From: an uncultured Rubrobacteraceae bacterium
GTDB lineage: Bacteria; Actinomycetota; Rubrobacteria; Rubrobacterales; Rubrobacteraceae
DNA length: 61,481 nt
Assembly: GCA_902806075.1 (NCBI GenBank)
Contig: CADCVG010000086.1
Coordinates: forward strand, 5,854-67,334
Reading direction: 5' to 3'
Shown: piece after piece, positions 25,002-39,197 of the stretch
Layout of the letters: each line of letters starts with the position of its first letter
Numbering within the stretch: position 1 is the first letter of the stretch
The notes under the pieces: model-generated
Told to the model about the DNA's origin: nothing
The model's input: only the letters and a program-made list of their open reading frames with translations
Databases searched by the model: none
Program-made: the position numbers and the translations under genes

Positions 25002-25136
25002 TCAGACGGCCAGACGCTTGCGCCCCTGACGCCGGCGCGAGGCTATGATCCTACGGCCACCGGTAGTACTCATGCGCTTCCGGAAGCCGTGGGTCTTGGC
25101 CCGCTTGCGACGGTTCGGCTGGTAAGTACGCTTCAT
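25002..25136 (-). CDS. rpmH: 50S ribosomal protein L34
   Basis: Manual translation [44 protein letters not shown] (too short for the ORF track). Confidence 0.97.
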
Positions 25137-25179: not shown

Positions 25180-25208
25180 AGTATATCTGAACCAGCAAAC
25201 CAGTCCAA
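25180..25208 (-). promoter_or_regulatory. putative sigma-A promoter of the rpmH operon
   Basis: TTGGAC-17 nt-TATACT on the minus strand. Confidence 0.55.
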
Positions 25209-25388
25209 CAAGCTTGACTCGTCTCACCGCTTTACCATTCCACGGAGCGTAGTACCTATGTTTATGCGAAAAGAACTGCAAATCACTGTTTATCGTAAGA
25301 CGCAACGATCCACTAATAGCCGATTGTCCATCCACGCTAACTCTATCTGCGCCGCTCAACTCCGTAGCGTGCAACAACAAGGTCAAGT

Positions 25389-25421
25389 TTATCCACAACC
25401 TGTGGATAAACTTGTGGATAA
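25389..25421. promoter_or_regulatory. upstream DnaA-box cluster (oriC1 / dnaA operon control region)
   Basis: Three perfect boxes: TTATCCACA 25389, TGTGGATAA 25401, TGTGGATAA 25413, in an AT-rich intergenic region. Confidence 0.88.
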
Positions 25422-25505
25422 ATATGGTAATTGGCTGCAAATCTCTATTTTCATCTTCTTTGCTCTAGCGTACTATCGAGGGGGGCGCCATAATCCGGGT
25501 CGGGG

Positions 25506-26303
25506 ATGATGTACGCGAATCGGACACAGAGAGACACGGGGCATGCCGGCATCGGCGTCAAGCTCGCGGTATACCCGAAGAGCGGAGAGCCGGAGGTAAG
25601 CGAGGTCTCGGCATCCTCTCCGCGCGCGGCCGGGATGAAGTTCTCGAAGCTGGTGATGGAGAAGGTGCGTGAGGCCGGCGGGCGCGTCCCCGAGGAGGCG
25701 GTGCGGGAGTTGGTCGAGAACCTCATACACGCAGAGTACAAAGGCGTGGTGATCTCCGTCCTCGAAGAAGGAAACGTGGTGAGGATTTCGGATAAGGGAC
25801 CGGGCATAGAGCACAAGAGCCGCGCCTTCGAGTTCGGTTTCTCCGGCGCGACGTCGGAGGCGATCCGGGAGATACGAGGAGTTGGAGCAGGCCTCGGCAT
25901 GGCGCGTGCGGCGGCCGAGAAGGCGGGGGGAACCGTAACGGTGGAGGACAACATCGGGGGCGGCACGGTAGCGACCGTCTCGGTGGGAGAGACCAGTATG
26001 GTGCGAGAGGCGGTAGAGCAGGATGACAGTCCGGTGCGGACGCAGAGAAAGTATCCGGACGCCGTGCCAAAGATGAACATCTCCGAGAGGCAGCAGAAGG
26101 TTTTGATCACGGTGCTCGAGAGCGGTGAGGTAGGGCCTTCGACGGTCGCCGACAGGTTGGAGATAAGCGTCAGCACCGCCTACAGGGACCTCTCGGTCCT
26201 GGAGGAGCACGGTCTCGTCGCCGCTGCTGAATCAGGTAAGCGTGAGATCACGCCGCTCGGACGCGACGTGGTTGAGGCTATCGTCGACTCCTGGGTGAAG
26301 TAA
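25506..26303 (+). CDS. GHKL (HATPase_c-type) ATPase fused to a C-terminal winged HTH
   Basis: N-box ELVENLIHA, G1 ISDKGPGI, F-box AFEFGFS, G2 GVGAGLG, G3 GGGT; no His-phosphoacceptor domain; HTH STVADRLEISVSTAYRDLSVLEEHGLV. Confidence 0.8.
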   Translation: MMYANRTQRDTGHAGIGVKLAVYPKSGEPEVSEVSASSPRAAGMKFSKLVMEKVREAGGRVPEEAVRELVENLIHAEYKGVVISVLEEGNVVRISDKGPGIEHKSRAFEFGFSGATSEAIREIRGVGAGLGMARAAAEKAGGTVTVEDNIGGGTVATVSVGETSMVREAVEQDDSPVRTQRKYPDAVPKMNISERQQKVLITVLESGEVGPSTVADRLEISVSTAYRDLSVLEEHGLVAAAESGKREITPLGRDVVEAIVDSWVK

Positions 26304-26306
26304 CCG

Positions 26307-27656
26307 ATGTATCGTCCGGTCGAAGAGGTCTGGATAGAAGTGCTCGACCGCGTGTCCGAGCACATAAACACGCCCTCTTTGCGAGTCTGGTTCGAGGGCA
26401 CGAGACCTGTCGGCCTCTACGAGGACCGGTTGGAGATCTCCGTCCCAAACGACCTGGCCAAGGAGTACATAGAGAGCCGCTTCAAGCCGCTACTGGAGGA
26501 GGCTCTCGACTCCACTTTGGGCAAAGAGGACACGAGCCTCGTGGTCAGCATCGAGGGCGCCCGCGGAAGAGAGACCGGTAACGGCCGGAGCTCGAACGGC
26601 GTGGACTTTATGAAGAATACGCGCACATCGCGTCCGTTCAAGGCCAAGTACACCTTCGACACCTTCGTCATCGGGGCCGGCAACAGGTTCGCACACGCGG
26701 CGGCCCTGGCGGTGGCCGAGACTCCGGGCGTCGTCTACAACCCTCTCTTTATCTATGGGGGAGTAGGGCTGGGTAAAACGCATCTCCTGCGCGCGGTCGG
26801 GCAGTACGTCGAAGAAGAGGATCCGGGCATGAGGATGCGTTACGTCACCTGCGAAAACTTCACCAACGACTTCATCAACGCAGTGAGAGACAACGCTCCG
26901 CTGGAGTTCCAGAAGCGCTACCGGGAGAACGACGTGCTCCTCATCGACGACATCCAGTTCCTGGAGGGCAAGATCGAGACGCAGGAGGCGTTCTTTCACA
27001 CCTTCAACGCCCTCTACGAAGAGAACAAGCAGATCGTCATAACATCAGACCGGCACCCGAAGTACATCCCAACCCTCGAAGATAGACTCGTCTCGCGCTT
27101 TGAGTGGGGCCTCGTCACCGACATACAGCCACCGGACCTGGAGACGCGCATTGCGATCCTGCGCAAGAAGGCGCTGATGGACCGGCTGGAGGTGGACGAC
27201 GAAGTCCTGACGTTTATCGCCTCGAAGGTCTCGACGAACATCCGGGAGCTCGAAGGTGCACTGGTACGTATCCTGGCCTACGCCTCGCTCTACGGGCGAA
27301 CGGTGAGCGTGGCCCTCGCCGAAGAGGTCCTGAAAGACATACTGCTCGACGCAGCCTACAGGGAGATACCGGTCGAGCTCATACAGCACGAGGTCTGCCG
27401 CTACTTCGGTATCTCCAAGGGAGACCTCGTCGGCCAGAGTCGCTCCAGAGGTTTCGCCTACCCGAGGCAGGTCGCCATGTACCTCTGCCGCGAGCTAACC
27501 GACGAGTCACTGCCGAAGATAGGACGCGCCTTCGGCGGCCGCGACCACTCCACGGTCATGCACGCGAATACCAAGATCTCCAACCTCATAAACAGCGACC
27601 GCGACGTCTTCAACCAGATCCACGAGATCACCTACCACGTCAAAAGTAAACGCTGA
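26307..27656 (+). CDS. dnaA: chromosomal replication initiator DnaA
   Basis: [45 protein letters not shown], domain IV RQVAMYL...[12 protein letters not shown]. Confidence 0.99.
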
Positions 27657-27778
27657 TCCTCACCAGTAAGGTCCCTCAGGTCTCCCTATTCACATCCACC
27701 AATACTCTAAATACGCTCCTCACCCCTCCCCTGGTGGGAGGGTATATTGTAACATTAGTCAGGCATACCATTCAAAAG

Positions 27779-28210
27779 TTATCCACAGCCTATCCACAGC
27801 ATACCTCGCTAATGTGGACAACCTTCTCCACTCCGGTGGCTAAAACACCCAGTTATCCACATTTTCTGTGGATAGAAAGCGTATCCTGTGTATAACTCTC
27901 TTAGTTCATGGCTAAACAAGACACTTGTATATGGTTTTATGTATACAATCTGTGGATAACCCTGTGGATAAGAGGGGTAAAAGCTGTGGATAACTTTGTG
28001 GATAACTTTGTGGATAACTTCAGCCTGTGGATAACTCCCGACTTATCCACATTTCTTCCACAGGAAATCGTGAGTTGTCCACAATTTCGTCCACAGGTAT
28101 GTGGGGCACTTTTGGCCATATATAAGCAGAATCCCAGAGTTATCCACACTATCCACAGGCCTTATTATTACTATTAATATAAGAACTTAAGGGTTTAAAT
28201 AATAATAGTA
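27779..28210. other. replication origin oriC (dnaA-dnaN intergenic)
   Basis: Ten perfect TTATCCACA/TGTGGATAA boxes (27779, 27853, 27951, 27963, 27985, 27997, 28009, 28026, 28043, 28140) plus near-matches; box pair 28140-28157, GGCC, then TTATTATTACTATTA trio-like repeats and an AT-rich unwinding element. Confidence 0.95.
27985..28020 (+). repeat. 3 x 12-bp tandem repeat TGTGGATAACTT (tandem DnaA boxes)
   Basis: Exact copies at 27985, 27997 and 28009. Confidence 0.95.
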
Positions 28211-28228
28211 AAGGAAGGAGGAGGAGCT

Positions 28229-29368
28229 ATGAGGGCCGTTTGCAACACAGATTTGTTCGGAAAGAAGCTTGCGTTGGTCTCACGGGGGGTATCGGCTCGT
28301 TCGACGATACAGCTTCTGGGGGGGATCCTGTTGGAGGCAACGTCTGGGGGTGCGGTGCGGCTCTCGGCGACAGACATGGAGATCTCCATCCAGAGCTCTT
28401 CGCCGGCGGAGGTAGAGGAAGAGGGACGGGTGGTGATACCGGCCCGCATCTTCAACGACGTGGTGCGCTCCCTGCCGAAAGGTGAGTTCACCCTTGTGCA
28501 TGACCGGTCCGAGGGCGTGGTAAGGCTCTCGGCGCGGGAGAACGAGTACCGTATCCGGGCTTACGCGGCCGAGGATTTTCCGCAGTTGCCGAAGTTCGAC
28601 GAGTCCGGGGCGTTCAAGATGAGCGGCGAGGCGCTGGTCGAGACCGTGGAGAAGGTCTCGCGGTCGTACTCGCGGGACGAGACACGGCCGGTACTGACAG
28701 GCATCTTGATCTCCTTCGAGGAGTCGCGGGTCAGGATGGTGACGACGGACTCGTACCGGTTGAGCATCAAGGAGACCGAGCTTGCGACGACGTTCGACGG
28801 CGCAAGGGAGGCGATCATCCCGGCCAGGGCGATGCAGGAGGTTGGACGCATCTTCTCCGGTTCGGACGAGGAGCAGGTCGAGGTCGCGCTCTCAGAGAAC
28901 CAGGCGCTCTTCAGGATCGGGGACGTCCTCTTCGGCACCCGTCTGATCGAGGGGAACTTCCCCGAGTACAAGCGCCTGTTACCCAACACGTTCCATCGCG
29001 AGATCTCCGTCCATCGCGAGGACCTCGTTGACTCCCTGCGCCGCGTAAACCTCTTCGCCCAGCGCCAGACGCCACCGGTGCCGGTGAGCCTGGCCTTCTC
29101 CGAGGGGGCAGTCGAGGTATCGGTGAGGAATGGCGAGGTGGGGGAGGCCCGCGAGAAGCTCCCCGCAAACAGCGAGGACGAGTTCCACATCTCCTTCAAC
29201 CCGAGCTACCTGCTCGACGGCGTCTCGGCGGTGGACTCGGAGAAGGTCCTCTTCAAGCTCAACGAGTCCCTGAAGCCGGGGCTCATCGTGCCGGAGAACG
29301 GCGACGACGGGGAGGAGTCGGACTTCCTGTACCTGATCATGCCGATGCGCGACCCGTCCCAGGGCTAG
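28229..29368 (+). CDS. dnaN: DNA polymerase III beta sliding clamp
   Basis: ATDMEISI, SRDETRPVLTG, TTDSYRL, RLIEGNFPEY, FNPSYLLD, YLIMPMR. Confidence 0.97.
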   Translation: MRAVCNTDLFGKKLALVSRGVSARSTIQLLGGILLEATSGGAVRLSATDMEISIQSSSPAEVEEEGRVVIPARIFNDVVRSLPKGEFTLVHDRSEGVVRLSARENEYRIRAYAAEDFPQLPKFDESGAFKMSGEALVETVEKVSRSYSRDETRPVLTGILISFEESRVRMVTTDSYRLSIKETELATTFDGAREAIIPARAMQEVGRIFSGSDEEQVEVALSENQALFRIGDVLFGTRLIEGNFPEYKRLLPNTFHREISVHREDLVDSLRRVNLFAQRQTPPVPVSLAFSEGAVEVSVRNGEVGEAREKLPANSEDEFHISFNPSYLLDGVSAVDSEKVLFKLNESLKPGLIVPENGDDGEESDFLYLIMPMRDPSQG

Positions 29369-35330: not shown

Positions 35331-35338
<8 letters not shown>

Positions 35339-35753
35339 CGGTAGGACCTGCGACGGCGTGGTTGAGTGTACGGCGCTCGTCCTGGCGGAGAGTTGCGCCG
35401 AGCTTGACGGTCGGATCACCCTCTTCGGGATACTCGACGAGTTGAGGCCCAACGGGGCCGACGGTGGGTACTCCTTCGTGATCTACGCCAAGTTCGAGGG
35501 GTGCGAGCACGCCGACGGCGGCGAGCGGCGGGCACGCATCCTCATCACCGACGAAGAAGGCGAAGTCCTGGAAGAGTCGGCCGAGTACTCCGTGTGGCTG
35601 AGTGGTGAGGAGAGCCCGGCGACCATCTTGGCTGCCTTTGATCTTCCGGGGGACCTGGAGGTCGAGGAGACGCTGCTGTGGGTCGAAGCGGAGCTCGACG
35701 AAGAGACATTGGCGCAGACGGCGATACCCCTGCGCGAACGATACAACGTGTAA
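35331..35753 (+). CDS. hypothetical acidic beta-rich protein
   Basis: 140-aa ORF overlapping the gyrA stop by 8 nt, GGAGAGG RBS, followed by a hairpin. Confidence 0.65.
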
Positions 35754-35813: not shown

Positions 35814-37037
35814 ATGCCCGAAGATCTAGCAATATTTATCGACTGGGAGAATATCTACATCTCCACGGTCACGGAGTACGGTGCGAAGCCGAACGTCTCG
35901 GCGATCCTGGAGAAGTCCCGTGAGTACGGGCGCATCGTCTCCGCGACCGCCTACGCGGACTGGACCGACGGAGACTTCCGCCAGGCTCCGCCCACCCTGT
36001 ACTCGAACGGCATCTCGCCGCGCTACATCTCTGCCCGATACTTCCCCGGAGGCCGCTCGCAGAAGCGCCGAACGAACTCCATTGACGTGATGCTGGCGGT
36101 TGAGTGCGCGGACTTCCTGCACTACCATCCGCAGGTCGATACCTACGTGCTCGTGACCGGCGACGGGGACTTTATTCCGCTCGTGAGCCTGCTCCGCAGC
36201 CGGGGGAAGAATGTCGTGGTGATAGGGGTTTCGGAGGCGACCTCCTACCACCTCATAGAGTCTGCTGACCACTTTATCTCCTACGCCTCCCTCTTGGAAG
36301 AGGAGCGCGCCGCACGTGCCCGCGATCGGCAGCCGAAGAAGAAGACGTCCGACCCGTACAGGGAGCTGGTGAGCGCTGTCGAGGCTCTCAAGAAGGGCGG
36401 CAAGACGCGGGTTTTGGGGCAGGTCAAGCAGCAGATGATCGTGCAACTCGGTTCATTCGACGAGCGCAACGAGGGCTTCAAGAAGTTCAAGGACTTCGTG
36501 GTCGAGGCGGAGCGTCGCGGTCTGGTGAACACGGTGGACCAGGATCTGGAGCTCCAGGTCTACCTGCCGGACGAGGAGGTCCCCGAGGGCCCCGAGTCCG
36601 ACCTGGCCACCGAGGAGCCGAAGGAGCCAACCGCCGAAGTCCAGGCGAACGGTAGTGCGGACGGGCAGCCCCAGCGGGCCGAGGTGGAGGAGACCGAGGA
36701 GCCGGCCGAGCCGCGCGCGGAGCAGGGGGCGGAGCCGGGCTTCGATCTTCTGGAGGATCTCACGCCCTACGAGTTGAGGACCATCTGCAAGAGCGTGGCG
36801 GGGCTCGAGGAGCCGGCATCCTTCGTGGAGATCTTTGGGAGCATCCGGGATCTCGACGAGCGGGGGGAGTTGGAGCTGTCGCAGGATGAGATAAGGGAGG
36901 TCATAGGGGCGATGCTGGAGGCCGGATACCTCACGCCCACCCGCACCAGGCCCTACGAGAAGGCCAAAGCCGACATAACCTTCTACACTCTCGCCCGCGA
37001 CCGCCAGGAGGTCAAGGCCGCGCTCGCGGTCTCCTAA
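35814..37037 (+). CDS. NYN (LabA/DUF88) domain protein with OST-HTH/LOTUS domain
   Basis: AIFIDWENI, AYADW, NSIDVMLAVE, LVTGDGDFIPL, ADHFISY; LOTUS-like FDERNEGFKKFKDFV. Confidence 0.85.
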   Translation: MPEDLAIFIDWENIYISTVTEYGAKPNVSAILEKSREYGRIVSATAYADWTDGDFRQAPPTLYSNGISPRYISARYFPGGRSQKRRTNSIDVMLAVECADFLHYHPQVDTYVLVTGDGDFIPLVSLLRSRGKNVVVIGVSEATSYHLIESADHFISYASLLEEERAARARDRQPKKKTSDPYRELVSAVEALKKGGKTRVLGQVKQQMIVQLGSFDERNEGFKKFKDFVVEAERRGLVNTVDQDLELQVYLPDEEVPEGPESDLATEEPKEPTAEVQANGSADGQPQRAEVEETEEPAEPRAEQGAEPGFDLLEDLTPYELRTICKSVAGLEEPASFVEIFGSIRDLDERGELELSQDEIREVIGAMLEAGYLTPTRTRPYEKAKADITFYTLARDRQEVKAALAVS

Positions 37038-37324: not shown

Positions 37325-37429
37325 GGCCTCAGTCTACTACGTGCCGTGGACGGTCTCTCTGGACATGTATGCGTATGTACGCTAGTGTACTTGTACAATC
37401 TAATGAGAATATCGGAGGCTGCGGCAGTC

Positions 37430-37843
37430 ATGGGTATCAACCAGAGGATCTCGCTCAGGAAGTTCGTCGGTGACATCAGGCGCTGGGTCGACGAGGGCCG
37501 GAGCGATGAGTGGATAGCGAGCGCTTTGGGGACGAGCTCGTCGTCCGTGCAATCCTTCCGCTCGCGCAACGGCATCTACCGCAAGTCTCCGGGTGTGGAG
37601 ATCGAAGATCCTACAGAGTATGAGACTTACGAGGGAGTATTGGATATCGAAGGGGGGCCTGGGAACTCTCCGGGAGCGTGGTTCGACCCTTCCGTCTCTG
37701 ACGATCCGCGCTGGCAGAGTCGTTGGGGGTCGGTCGGCAGGGTCGAGGTGCGTGTGAGCCCCACCAGGATCTTGCTAGTCCCCCGCGGCGGACGCAACTC
37801 TGCGAACGGAAACGGGCGGGTTACCGGCCAGCCTGCGGTATAA
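37430..37843 (+). CDS. hypothetical protein with N-terminal HTH-like segment
   Basis: GRSDEWIASALGTSSSSVQSFRSRNGI resembles an HTH; ATG 37430 follows GGAGG. Confidence 0.6.
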   Translation: MGINQRISLRKFVGDIRRWVDEGRSDEWIASALGTSSSSVQSFRSRNGIYRKSPGVEIEDPTEYETYEGVLDIEGGPGNSPGAWFDPSVSDDPRWQSRWGSVGRVEVRVSPTRILLVPRGGRNSANGNGRVTGQPAV

Positions 37844-38447: not shown

Positions 38448-39197
38448 ATGAGCGGGGGCACTCTGAGTTGGAGTTCCTTTACCGCGCGGTTCCCCTGGTG
38501 GGCCGGATCGGTGACGACGGTCGCTATTTTAGGGGCGTTTACCATCTACTCCATCTTTATCGTGTTCTTCCAGCCGGTGGGAGAGTACGGTGGATACTTG
38601 CTCTCTCCCATGTATTCGCCGCCCGTGCCCAGCCCCATAGACTGGCTCTCGCCGGCGATCTTCGTACTGTGGATACCTTTGGGATTCCGGCTTACGTGCT
38701 ACTACTACCGAAAGGCGTACTACAGGGCGTTCCTCTGGGATCCTCCGAATTGCTCCAGCAAGGCCCAGCAGCGGGAGCCCCGAAGCCCCGAGAATTACAG
38801 TGGCGAGAGGAACCTGTGGGTCTTCAACAACGTTCACCGATACTTCCTCTACGGGTCGATAATAGTGGTGGCGTTTCTCCTTTATGAAACGATTCGCGCG
38901 TTCTTCCCGGACGGGTTCGGGATCACCATCGGATCTCTCCTTTTCCTGCTAAACGTGGTCCTGCTCTCGGGTTACACCTTCGGATGCCACTCCATGCGGC
39001 ATCTCGCCGGGGGTAGGGTGGATTGCTACTCCTGCGTGAGGGGAGGCAACCTGCGCCGCAAGTCCTTTCAGTGGGTTAGCGTCCTAAATGGACGGCACAT
39101 GTTCTGGGCCTGGGTTAGCCTGTTCTCGGTGTGGGGGGCGGACGTATACGTGCGGCTGCTCATGGCGGGCGTCATAACTGACTTGAGGCTGGTGTAA
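38448..39197 (+). CDS. succinate dehydrogenase membrane anchor (Sdh1/SdhF-type)
   Basis: About 5 TM; PLGFRLTCYYYRKAYYRAF, NNVHRYFLY, YTFGCHSMRHLAGG, LNGRHMFWAW; first gene of the sdhAB operon. Confidence 0.8.
   Translation: MSGGTLSWSSFTARFPWWAGSVTTVAILGAFTIYSIFIVFFQPVGEYGGYLLSPMYSPPVPSPIDWLSPAIFVLWIPLGFRLTCYYYRKAYYRAFLWDPPNCSSKAQQREPRSPENYSGERNLWVFNNVHRYFLYGSIIVVAFLLYETIRAFFPDGFGITIGSLLFLLNVVLLSGYTFGCHSMRHLAGGRVDCYSCVRGGNLRRKSFQWVSVLNGRHMFWAWVSLFSVWGADVYVRLLMAGVITDLRLV

What the first reader, a model, noticed from the sequence alone, without database searches (positions are those of the whole stretch)
25389..27656. GHKL-ATPase/winged-helix gene inside the split origin, tightly coupled to dnaA: candidate undescribed initiation regulator
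Seen: the usually gene-free rpmH-dnaA gap holds a 265-aa ORF (25506-26303). It starts ~85 bp after three perfect DnaA boxes and ends 3 bp before the dnaA ATG, leaving no intergenic room for a separate dnaA promoter and no obvious RBS. It has all GHKL ATP-binding boxes (ELVENLIHA, DKGPGI, FGFS, GAGLG, GGT) but no sensor or His-phosphoacceptor domain, plus a C-terminal wHTH. Known: dnaA promoters are autoregulated through DnaA boxes, and the initiation regulators I know (DiaA/HobA, YabA, SirA, Hda, MtrA, AdpA, CtrA) lack this architecture. Inference: an ATP-gated DNA-binding protein co-expressed with DnaA that may bind the origin or dnaA promoter, or act as an anti-sigma-type Ser kinase/ATP clamp on DnaA.
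Basis: partly seen in the sequence, partly recalled or inferred. Interest (0 to 1): 0.75.

Follow-up and report, generated by a model that had tools for sequence, protein, structure and literature searches.

The report
ATPase–DNA-binder gene heading dnaA operon
An unstudied gene joining a predicted ATP-splitting module to a predicted DNA-binding winged helix sits directly in front of the replication-initiator gene dnaA here and in every checkable relative from at least two bacterial phyla, so it is likely, though untested, a new ATP-gated regulator of dnaA expression or of replication start.

Summary
The ORF is real: 265 aa, GHKL (HATPase_c) plus winged helix, ending 3 nt before dnaA and 84 nt after three perfect DnaA boxes. 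"No RBS" is wrong: a Shine-Dalgarno-like site lies in its last codons. It defines a conserved, nearly always single-copy family, found in 145 of 400 sampled Actinomycetota genomes and 79 of 94 genomes of a second phylum. Of 201 family loci, 188 have dnaA immediately downstream; the other 13 are cut short. In one clade the gene inverted together with dnaA. It is dispensable elsewhere: 0 of 60 non-carrier dnaA loci hold it. It keeps the MutL/GyrB-type catalytic pair E68/E71, which histidine kinases typically lose. Its best structural match is DIP2311 (3LMM), tied with kinase domains and SpoIIAB. Best reading: a likely ATP-switched, dimerising DNA-binding regulator, transcribed first in the DnaA-box-controlled dnaA operon. 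Its DNA target, any DnaA contact and the "split origin" are untested; I found no operator motif specific to carriers. Ten literature searches found no description. This scan already found the same family on other genomes (nine earlier notes seen).

The parts
25005..25136 (-). rpmH (L34), divergent neighbour
   Evidence: Pfam Ribosomal_L34
25180..25207 (-). Likely rpmH promoter; its -10 is conserved across the family
   Evidence: Promoter scan; conserved in 27 family loci
25276..25282 (+). First copy of a conserved non-coding CTGCAAA motif, function unknown
   Evidence: Conserved block in 27 aligned family loci; 17 similar sites genome-wide
25389..25421 (.). Three perfect DnaA boxes at 12-bp spacing; likely autoregulatory operator of the operon, possibly an upstream origin half
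   Evidence: conserved in 27 family loci; a similar cluster at 11-12 bp spacing in many of 30 second-phylum loci
25435..25441 (+). Second CTGCAAA copy, between the boxes and the predicted promoter
25466..25494 (+). Predicted operon promoter (-35 at 25466-25471, 17-nt spacer, -10 at 25489-25494), implying a nearly leaderless mRNA
   Evidence: Inferred from conservation in 27 family loci; not found by the consensus scan
25506..26303 (+). The gene: beta-beta-alpha extension (16-56), GHKL ATP-binding domain (63-160; E68, E71, N72, H75), flexible linker, winged helix (191-265)
   Evidence: (pLDDT 88); start codon conserved in the family
26293..26298 (+). Shine-Dalgarno-like site for dnaA inside the last codons of the ORF; translational coupling likely
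   Evidence: Duplex energy -8.3 kcal/mol; -3.6 to -10.4 in 23 family loci
26307..27656 (+). dnaA
   Evidence: TIGR00362 above cut-off
27657..28228 (.). Main oriC: 11 strict DnaA boxes, a tandem pair at 28140/28149, then trio-like repeats and an AT-rich stretch (likely unwinding site)
   Evidence: GC-skew minimum near 25 kb; likeness to the B. subtilis unwinding module is recalled
28229..29368 (+). dnaN
   Evidence: Pfam DNA_pol3_beta

Best explanation
This gene lies directly upstream of dnaA and encodes a GHKL domain joined to a winged helix; it is likely the first gene of the dnaA operon and likely acts as an ATP-switched, dimerising DNA-binding regulator of dnaA expression or of origin firing. 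Shown: the gene, its two domains, its conserved ATP-site residues, its fixed position and the DnaA boxes upstream. Inferred: one promoter under DnaA-box control makes this protein and DnaA together, with translational coupling here. Inferred by analogy with MutL/GyrB and the Schlafen-associated GHKL domain: ATP binding closes the lid and pairs two GHKL domains, which brings two tethered winged helices into a DNA-binding arrangement, and hydrolysis via E68/E71 releases them. The likeliest target is the rpmH-dnaA promoter/box region or oriC. That would give an accessory, energy-sensitive brake or timer on initiation, which many lineages have lost.
For: Position:
- 153 of 171 family loci have dnaA right downstream on the same strand; the other 18 have at most 414 bp after the gene. 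0 of 64 lower-scoring loci (mostly generic GHKL hits) have dnaA.
- 5 of those 18 are contig ends whose contig begins with dnaA.
- 30 of 30 second-phylum loci show the same order.
- In four loci forming one clade, the gene and dnaA inverted together relative to rpmH and dnaN, so the unit is gene+dnaA.
- Single copy in the own genome and in 78 of 79 carriers.

Operon layout:
- In 24 of 49 divergent upstream regions an extended -10 faces the gene (posterior 0.8 or more). In 23 of those 24 a strict DnaA box lies between it and the gene or within 75 bp upstream.
- Stop-to-start gap is 0-14 nt in 23 of 23 own-family loci, with no rise in synonymous conservation at the 3' end to suggest an internal promoter.
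- Near-identical contigs from RNA libraries bridge the junction in 3 of 4 runs clearly and the fourth barely. This is one study and does not prove one transcript.

Chemistry:
- E-x-x-E/D-N in 219 of 252 members, E68 in 240, H75 in 250.
- PMC13614785 (passages) shows both acids act in MutL/GyrB hydrolysis and says histidine kinases typically replace the glutamate.
- DIP2311 covers most of the N-terminal module, 148 of 155 residues (Z 12.0, rmsd 3.0).
- In a Schlafen-associated GHKL domain ATP binding drives oligomerisation (10.64898/2026.05.29.728809, section 9).
- Winged-helix R195, G210, P211, T224, R227, R246 and G252 are 86-95% conserved.
Against: - No binding site identified. The only cross-lineage non-promoter motif is a loose T-tract. 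It scored in 47% of held-out carriers against 18% of non-carriers and 33% in the second phylum, but it also arises de novo in non-carriers. No strong palindrome was found.
- Many complete or near-complete relatives lack the gene at dnaA (0 of 60), with at least 10 state changes on a DnaA tree. One genus has both states.
- No DnaA residue cleanly tracks the gene across independent losses.
- Ten loci of one family carry a -10-like TAGAAT just after the stop and a gap of about 48 nt, and some Coriobacteriia have gaps up to about 200 nt. dnaA may have its own promoter there.
- RNA-library contigs also cover the upstream box region (depth 3-5), so DNA in those libraries is not excluded.
- Structural Z-scores for DIP2311, kinase domains and SpoIIAB lie within about 1 of each other.
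- Loci are related and some are duplicates, so the counts are not independent.
Confidence: 0.5

Rival explanations
1. A general regulator or nucleoid protein that is co-expressed with dnaA for growth-rate or gene-dosage reasons but acts at many other sites and does not control initiation.
For: No carrier-specific operator near dnaA. A conserved CTGCAAA-type site occurs 17 times genome-wide. The gene has been lost repeatedly.
Against: Never seen away from dnaA in 188 checkable loci across two phyla, and it moved with dnaA, not rpmH, in an inversion. A general regulator would be expected to relocate sometimes.
Confidence: 0.2
2. A direct protein partner of DnaA or of the origin complex: the winged helix docks it at oriC and the GHKL module clamps or remodels DnaA oligomers in an ATP-dependent way.
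For: Tight coupling of stop and start with an embedded RBS suggests matched amounts of the two proteins. Pairwise identities of the two proteins correlate (rho 0.63), though shared ancestry explains that. In Coriobacteriia both the linker and the DnaA N-terminal half are long and divergent.
Against: No DnaA surface residue is specifically kept in carriers against 15 loci from independent losses; the best was P34, 0.74 against 0.20.
Confidence: 0.15
3. A SpoIIAB/RsbW- or PDK-like Ser/Thr protein kinase that uses its winged helix for localisation and phosphorylates DnaA or another replication protein.
For: SpoIIAB aligns at Z 10.9 over 129 residues, tied with the top hits. BCKD kinase is among the best profile hits (E about 1e-7). 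Such kinases also keep the first glutamate (recalled; PMC13614785 passage for mitochondrial kinases).
Against: The second acid E71, absent in mitochondrial kinases per PMC13614785, is kept in 219 of 252 members. Pfam HATPase_c_2 hits only 5 of 74 members, weakly. No sigma or anti-anti-sigma gene among 20 neighbours scanned in this window.
Confidence: 0.15

Closest known systems
DIP2311 of Corynebacterium diphtheriae (PDB 3LMM) and Schlafen-associated GHKL ATPases ('Schlatpase', PF13749)
   Same: Best structural cover of the whole N-terminal module, extension included (148 of 155 residues, Z 12.0, rmsd 3.0). Glu-x-x-x-Asn ATP site. Many Schlatpase proteins also end in a short HTH (10.64898/2026.05.29.728809, section 5). 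That DIP2311 is a Schlatpase is recalled; PMC8780604 (one passage) calls it of unknown function.
   Different: No Schlafen/AlbA_2 nuclease domain. PF13749 is not among the 25 listed families for 74 members. 14% identity. It sits at dnaA and not in defence islands.
MutL/GyrB/MORC-type GHKL ATPases
   Same: Both catalytic acids, E68 and E71 (aqMutL E29/E32 in PMC13614785), and a full ATP lid.
   Different: No S5 transducer or nuclease/topoisomerase part. It is a small protein with a tethered winged helix.
Catalytic domain of sensor histidine kinases (HK853, KinB, CpxA)
   Same: HATPase_c with N, G1, F and G2 boxes; these give the top sequence and Foldseek hits.
   Different: No DHp/phospho-His or sensor domain; keeps the catalytic glutamate; has a DNA-binding-type domain.
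Anti-sigma kinases SpoIIAB/RsbW
   Same: Stand-alone GHKL fold, Z 10.9-11.3.
   Different: Fused winged helix; no sigma or STAS neighbour in this window; weak HATPase_c_2 match in 5 of 74 members.
Origin- or dnaA-binding regulators AdpA, MtrA, IciA, HP1021 (PMC4285127, passages)
   Same: What it likely works like: a transcription-factor-type protein acting on the origin region.
   Different: Different families; by recall none has a GHKL module or is encoded at the head of the dnaA operon.

Membership tests
Sensor histidine kinase | HATPase_c domain with N/G1/F/G2 boxes | tested here: met
   74 of 74 members hit PF02518
Sensor histidine kinase | DHp/HisKA phospho-acceptor domain | tested here: not met
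   No HisKA hit in the window protein or among the listed families for 74 members. The model has a beta-beta-alpha extension, not a helical hairpin. H75 lies in the N-box helix.
GHL ATPase (MutL/GyrB/MORC type) | E-x-x-E/D-N catalytic pair | tested here: met
   219 of 252 members; motif role from PMC13614785
GHL ATPase (MutL/GyrB/MORC type) | S5-fold transducer domain after the ATPase | tested here: not met
   A low-confidence linker and a winged helix follow residue 160
GHL ATPase (MutL/GyrB/MORC type) | ATP hydrolysis and ATP-dependent dimerisation | not testable with these tools
   Needs biochemistry; no homodimer model was run
Schlatpase / PF13749 (DIP2311-like) | GHKL module with the same extended topology | tested here: inconclusive
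   Top structural hit and longest cover (Z 12.0, 148 aligned), but within about 1 Z of kinase domains; PF13749 not among the 25 of 31 families shown
Schlatpase / PF13749 (DIP2311-like) | N-terminal Schlafen/AlbA_2 domain | tested here: not met
   Only about 15 residues precede the module here. The best 120 longer relatives were 273-364 aa with no AlbA_2 listed; weaker, longer hits were not seen.
Anti-sigma Ser kinase (SpoIIAB/RsbW) | HATPase_c_2-type domain | tested here: inconclusive
   5 of 74 members, best E 4.4e-4; Z 10.9
Anti-sigma Ser kinase (SpoIIAB/RsbW) | Cognate sigma / anti-anti-sigma gene alongside | tested here: not met
   None among 20 neighbouring genes in this window; other loci were checked only for rpmH, rnpA, yidC, dnaA, dnaN, recF and gyrB
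Anti-sigma Ser kinase (SpoIIAB/RsbW) | Protein kinase activity | not testable with these tools
   Needs an assay
Bipartite oriC (B. subtilis / H. pylori type) | DnaA-box clusters on both sides of dnaA, one with an AT-rich unwinding element | tested here: met
   3 boxes upstream, 11 downstream with an AT-rich stretch; definition from PMC4285127 passages
Bipartite oriC (B. subtilis / H. pylori type) | Both halves needed for initiation | not testable with these tools
   Needs minichromosome or deletion tests
Origin/dnaA-binding regulator (AdpA, MtrA, HP1021 class) | Sequence-specific site in oriC or the dnaA promoter | tested here: inconclusive
   No carrier-specific motif
MarR / HrcA / TrmB winged-helix regulators | Family-specific winged helix and effector domain | tested here: inconclusive
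   MarR-type hits Z about 12-12.7, tied with 1STZ (recalled as HrcA) at 12.0; none of their effector domains was detected

The most novel reading that the evidence does not exclude
An ancient, undescribed class of replication-initiation control: an ATP-hydrolysing GHKL switch with a winged helix, made together with DnaA, that reads the cell's ATP state and gates the dnaA promoter or oriC. It would predate the split of Actinomycetota from a neighbouring phylum, was lost in the lineages of the model actinomycetes, and survives in cultured Rubrobacter and gut Coriobacteriia.
Probability: 0.4. Interest if true: 0.85.

Novelty: new variant of a known kind. Interest (0 to 1): 0.68.

Why it matters
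How DnaA is regulated outside E. coli and B. subtilis is largely open; PMC5720831 (abstract start in the listing) notes that many bacteria have no identified DnaA regulators. Here is a nearly always single-copy family fixed at the head of the dnaA operon across deep Actinomycetota and a second phylum, with a clear catalytic residue to mutate (E68) and a clear DNA-binding surface (R227). It occurs in named, cultured genera (Enorma, Collinsella), so the question can be tested directly. A GHKL ATPase used as a switch on a transcription-factor-type domain at the origin would be a new input into initiation control.

Tried and rejected
- Complex prediction of the protein (14-265) with full DnaA, using 74-row alignments: no answer (0.00 and 0.00; mark 0.32; controls not folded). 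This is no evidence either way. A homodimer was not modelled.
- Read-through fusion to DnaA (the two are in frame here): rejected. Frames were 53/20/30 over 103 loci, with the in-frame excess mostly from the own family (one frameshifted locus is mis-scored there).
- Internal dnaA promoter in the own family: no rise in synonymous conservation at the 3' end, and none in the consensus scan.
- Operator search: palindromic models scored below non-palindromic ones. The T-tract motif beats shuffles (log-likelihood 99.6 against 21-27) but also appears in non-carriers. CTGCAAA is not enriched genome-wide (146 observed, 156 expected).
- DnaA co-variation: apparent markers (Q360, V363, P386) reflect the one large non-carrier clade and fade in independent losses.
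- RNA runs: contigs only, one study. Low or missing cover between rpmH and the gene, and contigs starting near the ATG, are not taken as evidence; some contigs do cover the box region.
- A third phylum: not established. Two clusters carry NCBI Armatimonadota labels and one a Bacillota label, and the locus encoding P0278 has dnaA downstream. But labels on such genomes can mislead: L121, titled Acutalibacteraceae, has a DnaA that groups with Coriobacteriia.
- Alignment-based locus searches failed for lack of a conserved block; single proteins were used.
- Opposite-strand ORFs 25451-26176 and 25473-26210: treated as shadows, since the + strand protein is the conserved one; not scanned.
- Literature: searches gave no paper on this family. 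Paywalled papers are not covered, and no supplements were read; gene tables there could mention it.

Full report
Observation. The window holds the standard origin block: parB-parA-gidB-jag-yidC-yidD-rnpA-rpmH on the minus strand and dnaA-dnaN-recF-gyrB-gyrA on the plus strand, with the GC-skew minimum near 25 kb. Between rpmH and dnaA lies a 265-aa ORF, 25506-26303, whose stop is 3 nt before the dnaA ATG. Three perfect DnaA boxes end 84 nt before it, and 11 strict boxes fill the dnaA-dnaN gap (16 in the window against 0.57 expected). The last boxes are followed by trio-like repeats and an AT-rich stretch, so unwinding most likely happens downstream of dnaA. Whether the upstream boxes are an origin half or only an operator is untested. 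Close relatives carry the source name Rubrobacter.

The gene is real. The word-indexed search found 1154 proteins at E<=0.001 among 7995 candidates, the best 120 at 77-93% identity over nearly the full length. The search of 50% representatives found 124 at E<=1e-30. It is single-copy in its own genome. AlphaFold2 gives pLDDT 88: a beta-beta-alpha extension, a GHKL core, a loose linker and a winged helix. The linker runs from 17 to 242 residues across 238 members.

Range. In 400 other genomes of the phylum, best E-values split in two: 145 at 2e-18 or better (28 of 31 in the own family, 117 of 369 outside it; counted by hand from the table) and the rest at 1.5e-11 or worse, consistent with generic kinase hits. 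That tally includes six genomes marked unpublished, all without a strong hit; no other claim rests on them. Named carriers include Coriobacteriia, Enorma, Collinsella, Atopobiaceae and Eggerthellaceae records. A second, unnamed phylum has it in 79 of 94 genomes. A third phylum rests on database labels only.

Linkage. I held loci for all 28 own-family carriers and 81 of the 117 others, and added 80 loci from named genomes and 43 from metagenomes. Of 235 loci, 171 scored at least 100 bits on the family profile. Of these, 153 have dnaA directly downstream on the same strand and 18 end within 414 bp of the gene; none of the 64 lower-scoring loci has dnaA. Five of the 18 are contig ends whose contig begins with dnaA (circularity assumed). 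All 30 fetched loci of the second phylum, the best-scoring of 79 carriers, match. The total is 188 of 201, with 13 unresolved and no counter-example; some loci are duplicates and all are kin. In four loci forming one clade the gene and dnaA are inverted together between dnaN and rpmH.

Control. In 60 dnaA loci from genomes without a strong hit, the profile found nothing; 57 have rpmH 204-1029 bp upstream. On a 172-row DnaA tree (21 near-duplicate rows dropped) presence changes at least 10 times. The pattern looks like one large clade without the gene plus scattered losses, though the tree is unrooted. The gene is thus accessory. No DnaA residue tracks it cleanly across 15 loci from the scattered losses.

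Expression signals. In 27 own-family upstream regions the conserved blocks are the rpmH -10, two CTGCAAA motifs, the three boxes, a -35/-10-like pair 17 nt apart, and the start codon. This implies a nearly leaderless mRNA starting near 25501 (inferred). In 49 divergent regions, 24 have an extended -10 facing the gene, and 23 of these have a strict DnaA box downstream of it or within 75 bp upstream. That is the usual autoregulated dnaA promoter layout (recalled), moved one gene forward. Counter-signal: ten loci of one family show a -10-like hexamer right after the stop. RNA-library contigs bridge the junction in three runs clearly and one barely, all from one study, and DNA in those libraries is not excluded.

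Chemistry. The N-box keeps E68 in 240 of 252 members and E-x-x-E/D-N in 219. PMC13614785 (abstract, outline and passages read) shows that the matching E29/E32 pair activates water in MutL and GyrB, that the second acid is missing in Hsp90 and mitochondrial kinases, and that histidine kinases typically replace the first. The isolated N-terminal module (pLDDT 91.7) matches DIP2311 over 148 of 155 residues (Z 12.0), ahead of but nearly tied with HprS (11.1, 114 aligned) and SpoIIAB (10.9, 129 aligned); Foldseek ranks kinase domains first. For a Schlafen-associated GHKL domain, ATP binding drives oligomerisation and E314 is needed for hydrolysis (10.64898/2026.05.29.728809, passages and sections 5 and 9 read). 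The winged helix matches MarR-type and other winged helices equally well, and its recognition-helix and wing arginines are over 90% conserved.

Mechanism. Most likely (0.5) it is an ATP-switched, dimerising DNA-binding protein made with DnaA from a DnaA-controlled promoter and acting on that promoter region or on oriC. Every step after 'domains and position' is inferred. Rivals: a general regulator merely co-expressed with dnaA (0.2), a direct DnaA or origin clamp (0.15), or a Ser/Thr kinase (0.15). No carrier-specific operator was found.

Novelty. It fails membership as a histidine kinase, as a MutL/GyrB-type multidomain ATPase and as a Schlatpase; anti-sigma membership is not supported. Ten full-text searches (listings only, except the papers named) found no description. 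PMC4255298 (passages) and PMC4285127 (passages) showed no mention in the parts seen. Earlier notes of this scan report the same family on other genomes. They are not independent support, but their 'three phyla' claim prompted my search outside Actinomycetota, which confirmed two. Verdict: real, conserved, apparently undescribed, function untested; interest 0.68.

Noticed in passing
window 25276-25282 and 25435-25441; 17 sites in G000: A CTGCAAA-N5-8-TTT motif is strongly conserved twice in the rpmH-gene spacer of 27 family loci and recurs genome-wide in AT-rich contexts; it may be a nucleoid-protein or bending site.
   Followed up: partly
L085, L089, L095, L129: The gene and dnaA are inverted together between dnaN and rpmH in one clade (L129 is titled Eggerthellaceae), which rearranges the origin halves.
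   Followed up: partly
L075-L082, L099, L101-L103, L109, L130-L136: In these Coriobacteriia-type loci the DnaA N-terminal part is too divergent for tblastn. In those measured DnaA is long (about 490-590 aa; L130-L136 not measured), and the partner gene's linker is often long too.
   Followed up: no
L083, L088, L090, L094, L105-L107, L110-L112, just after the stop codon: Conserved TAGAAT about 48 nt before dnaA, a possible separate dnaA promoter; the same family also has members lacking the gene.
   Followed up: no
L029 (G193); G087:C3; L224: Apparently frameshifted or split copies of the gene; decay or assembly error not distinguished.
   Followed up: no
window 27724-27742: Terminator-like hairpin about 70 nt after dnaA, which may limit read-through into oriC.
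   Followed up: no
window 35331-35753, 35814-37037, 37346-37843, 38448-39197: After gyrA: two ORFs with no Pfam hit (140 and 249 aa), a NYN-domain protein and a weak HTH protein.
   Followed up: no
G006, G293 (family f7), G035: No DnaA match at E<=1e-60 in these three of 80 genomes; they may be incomplete or have a divergent DnaA.
   Followed up: no
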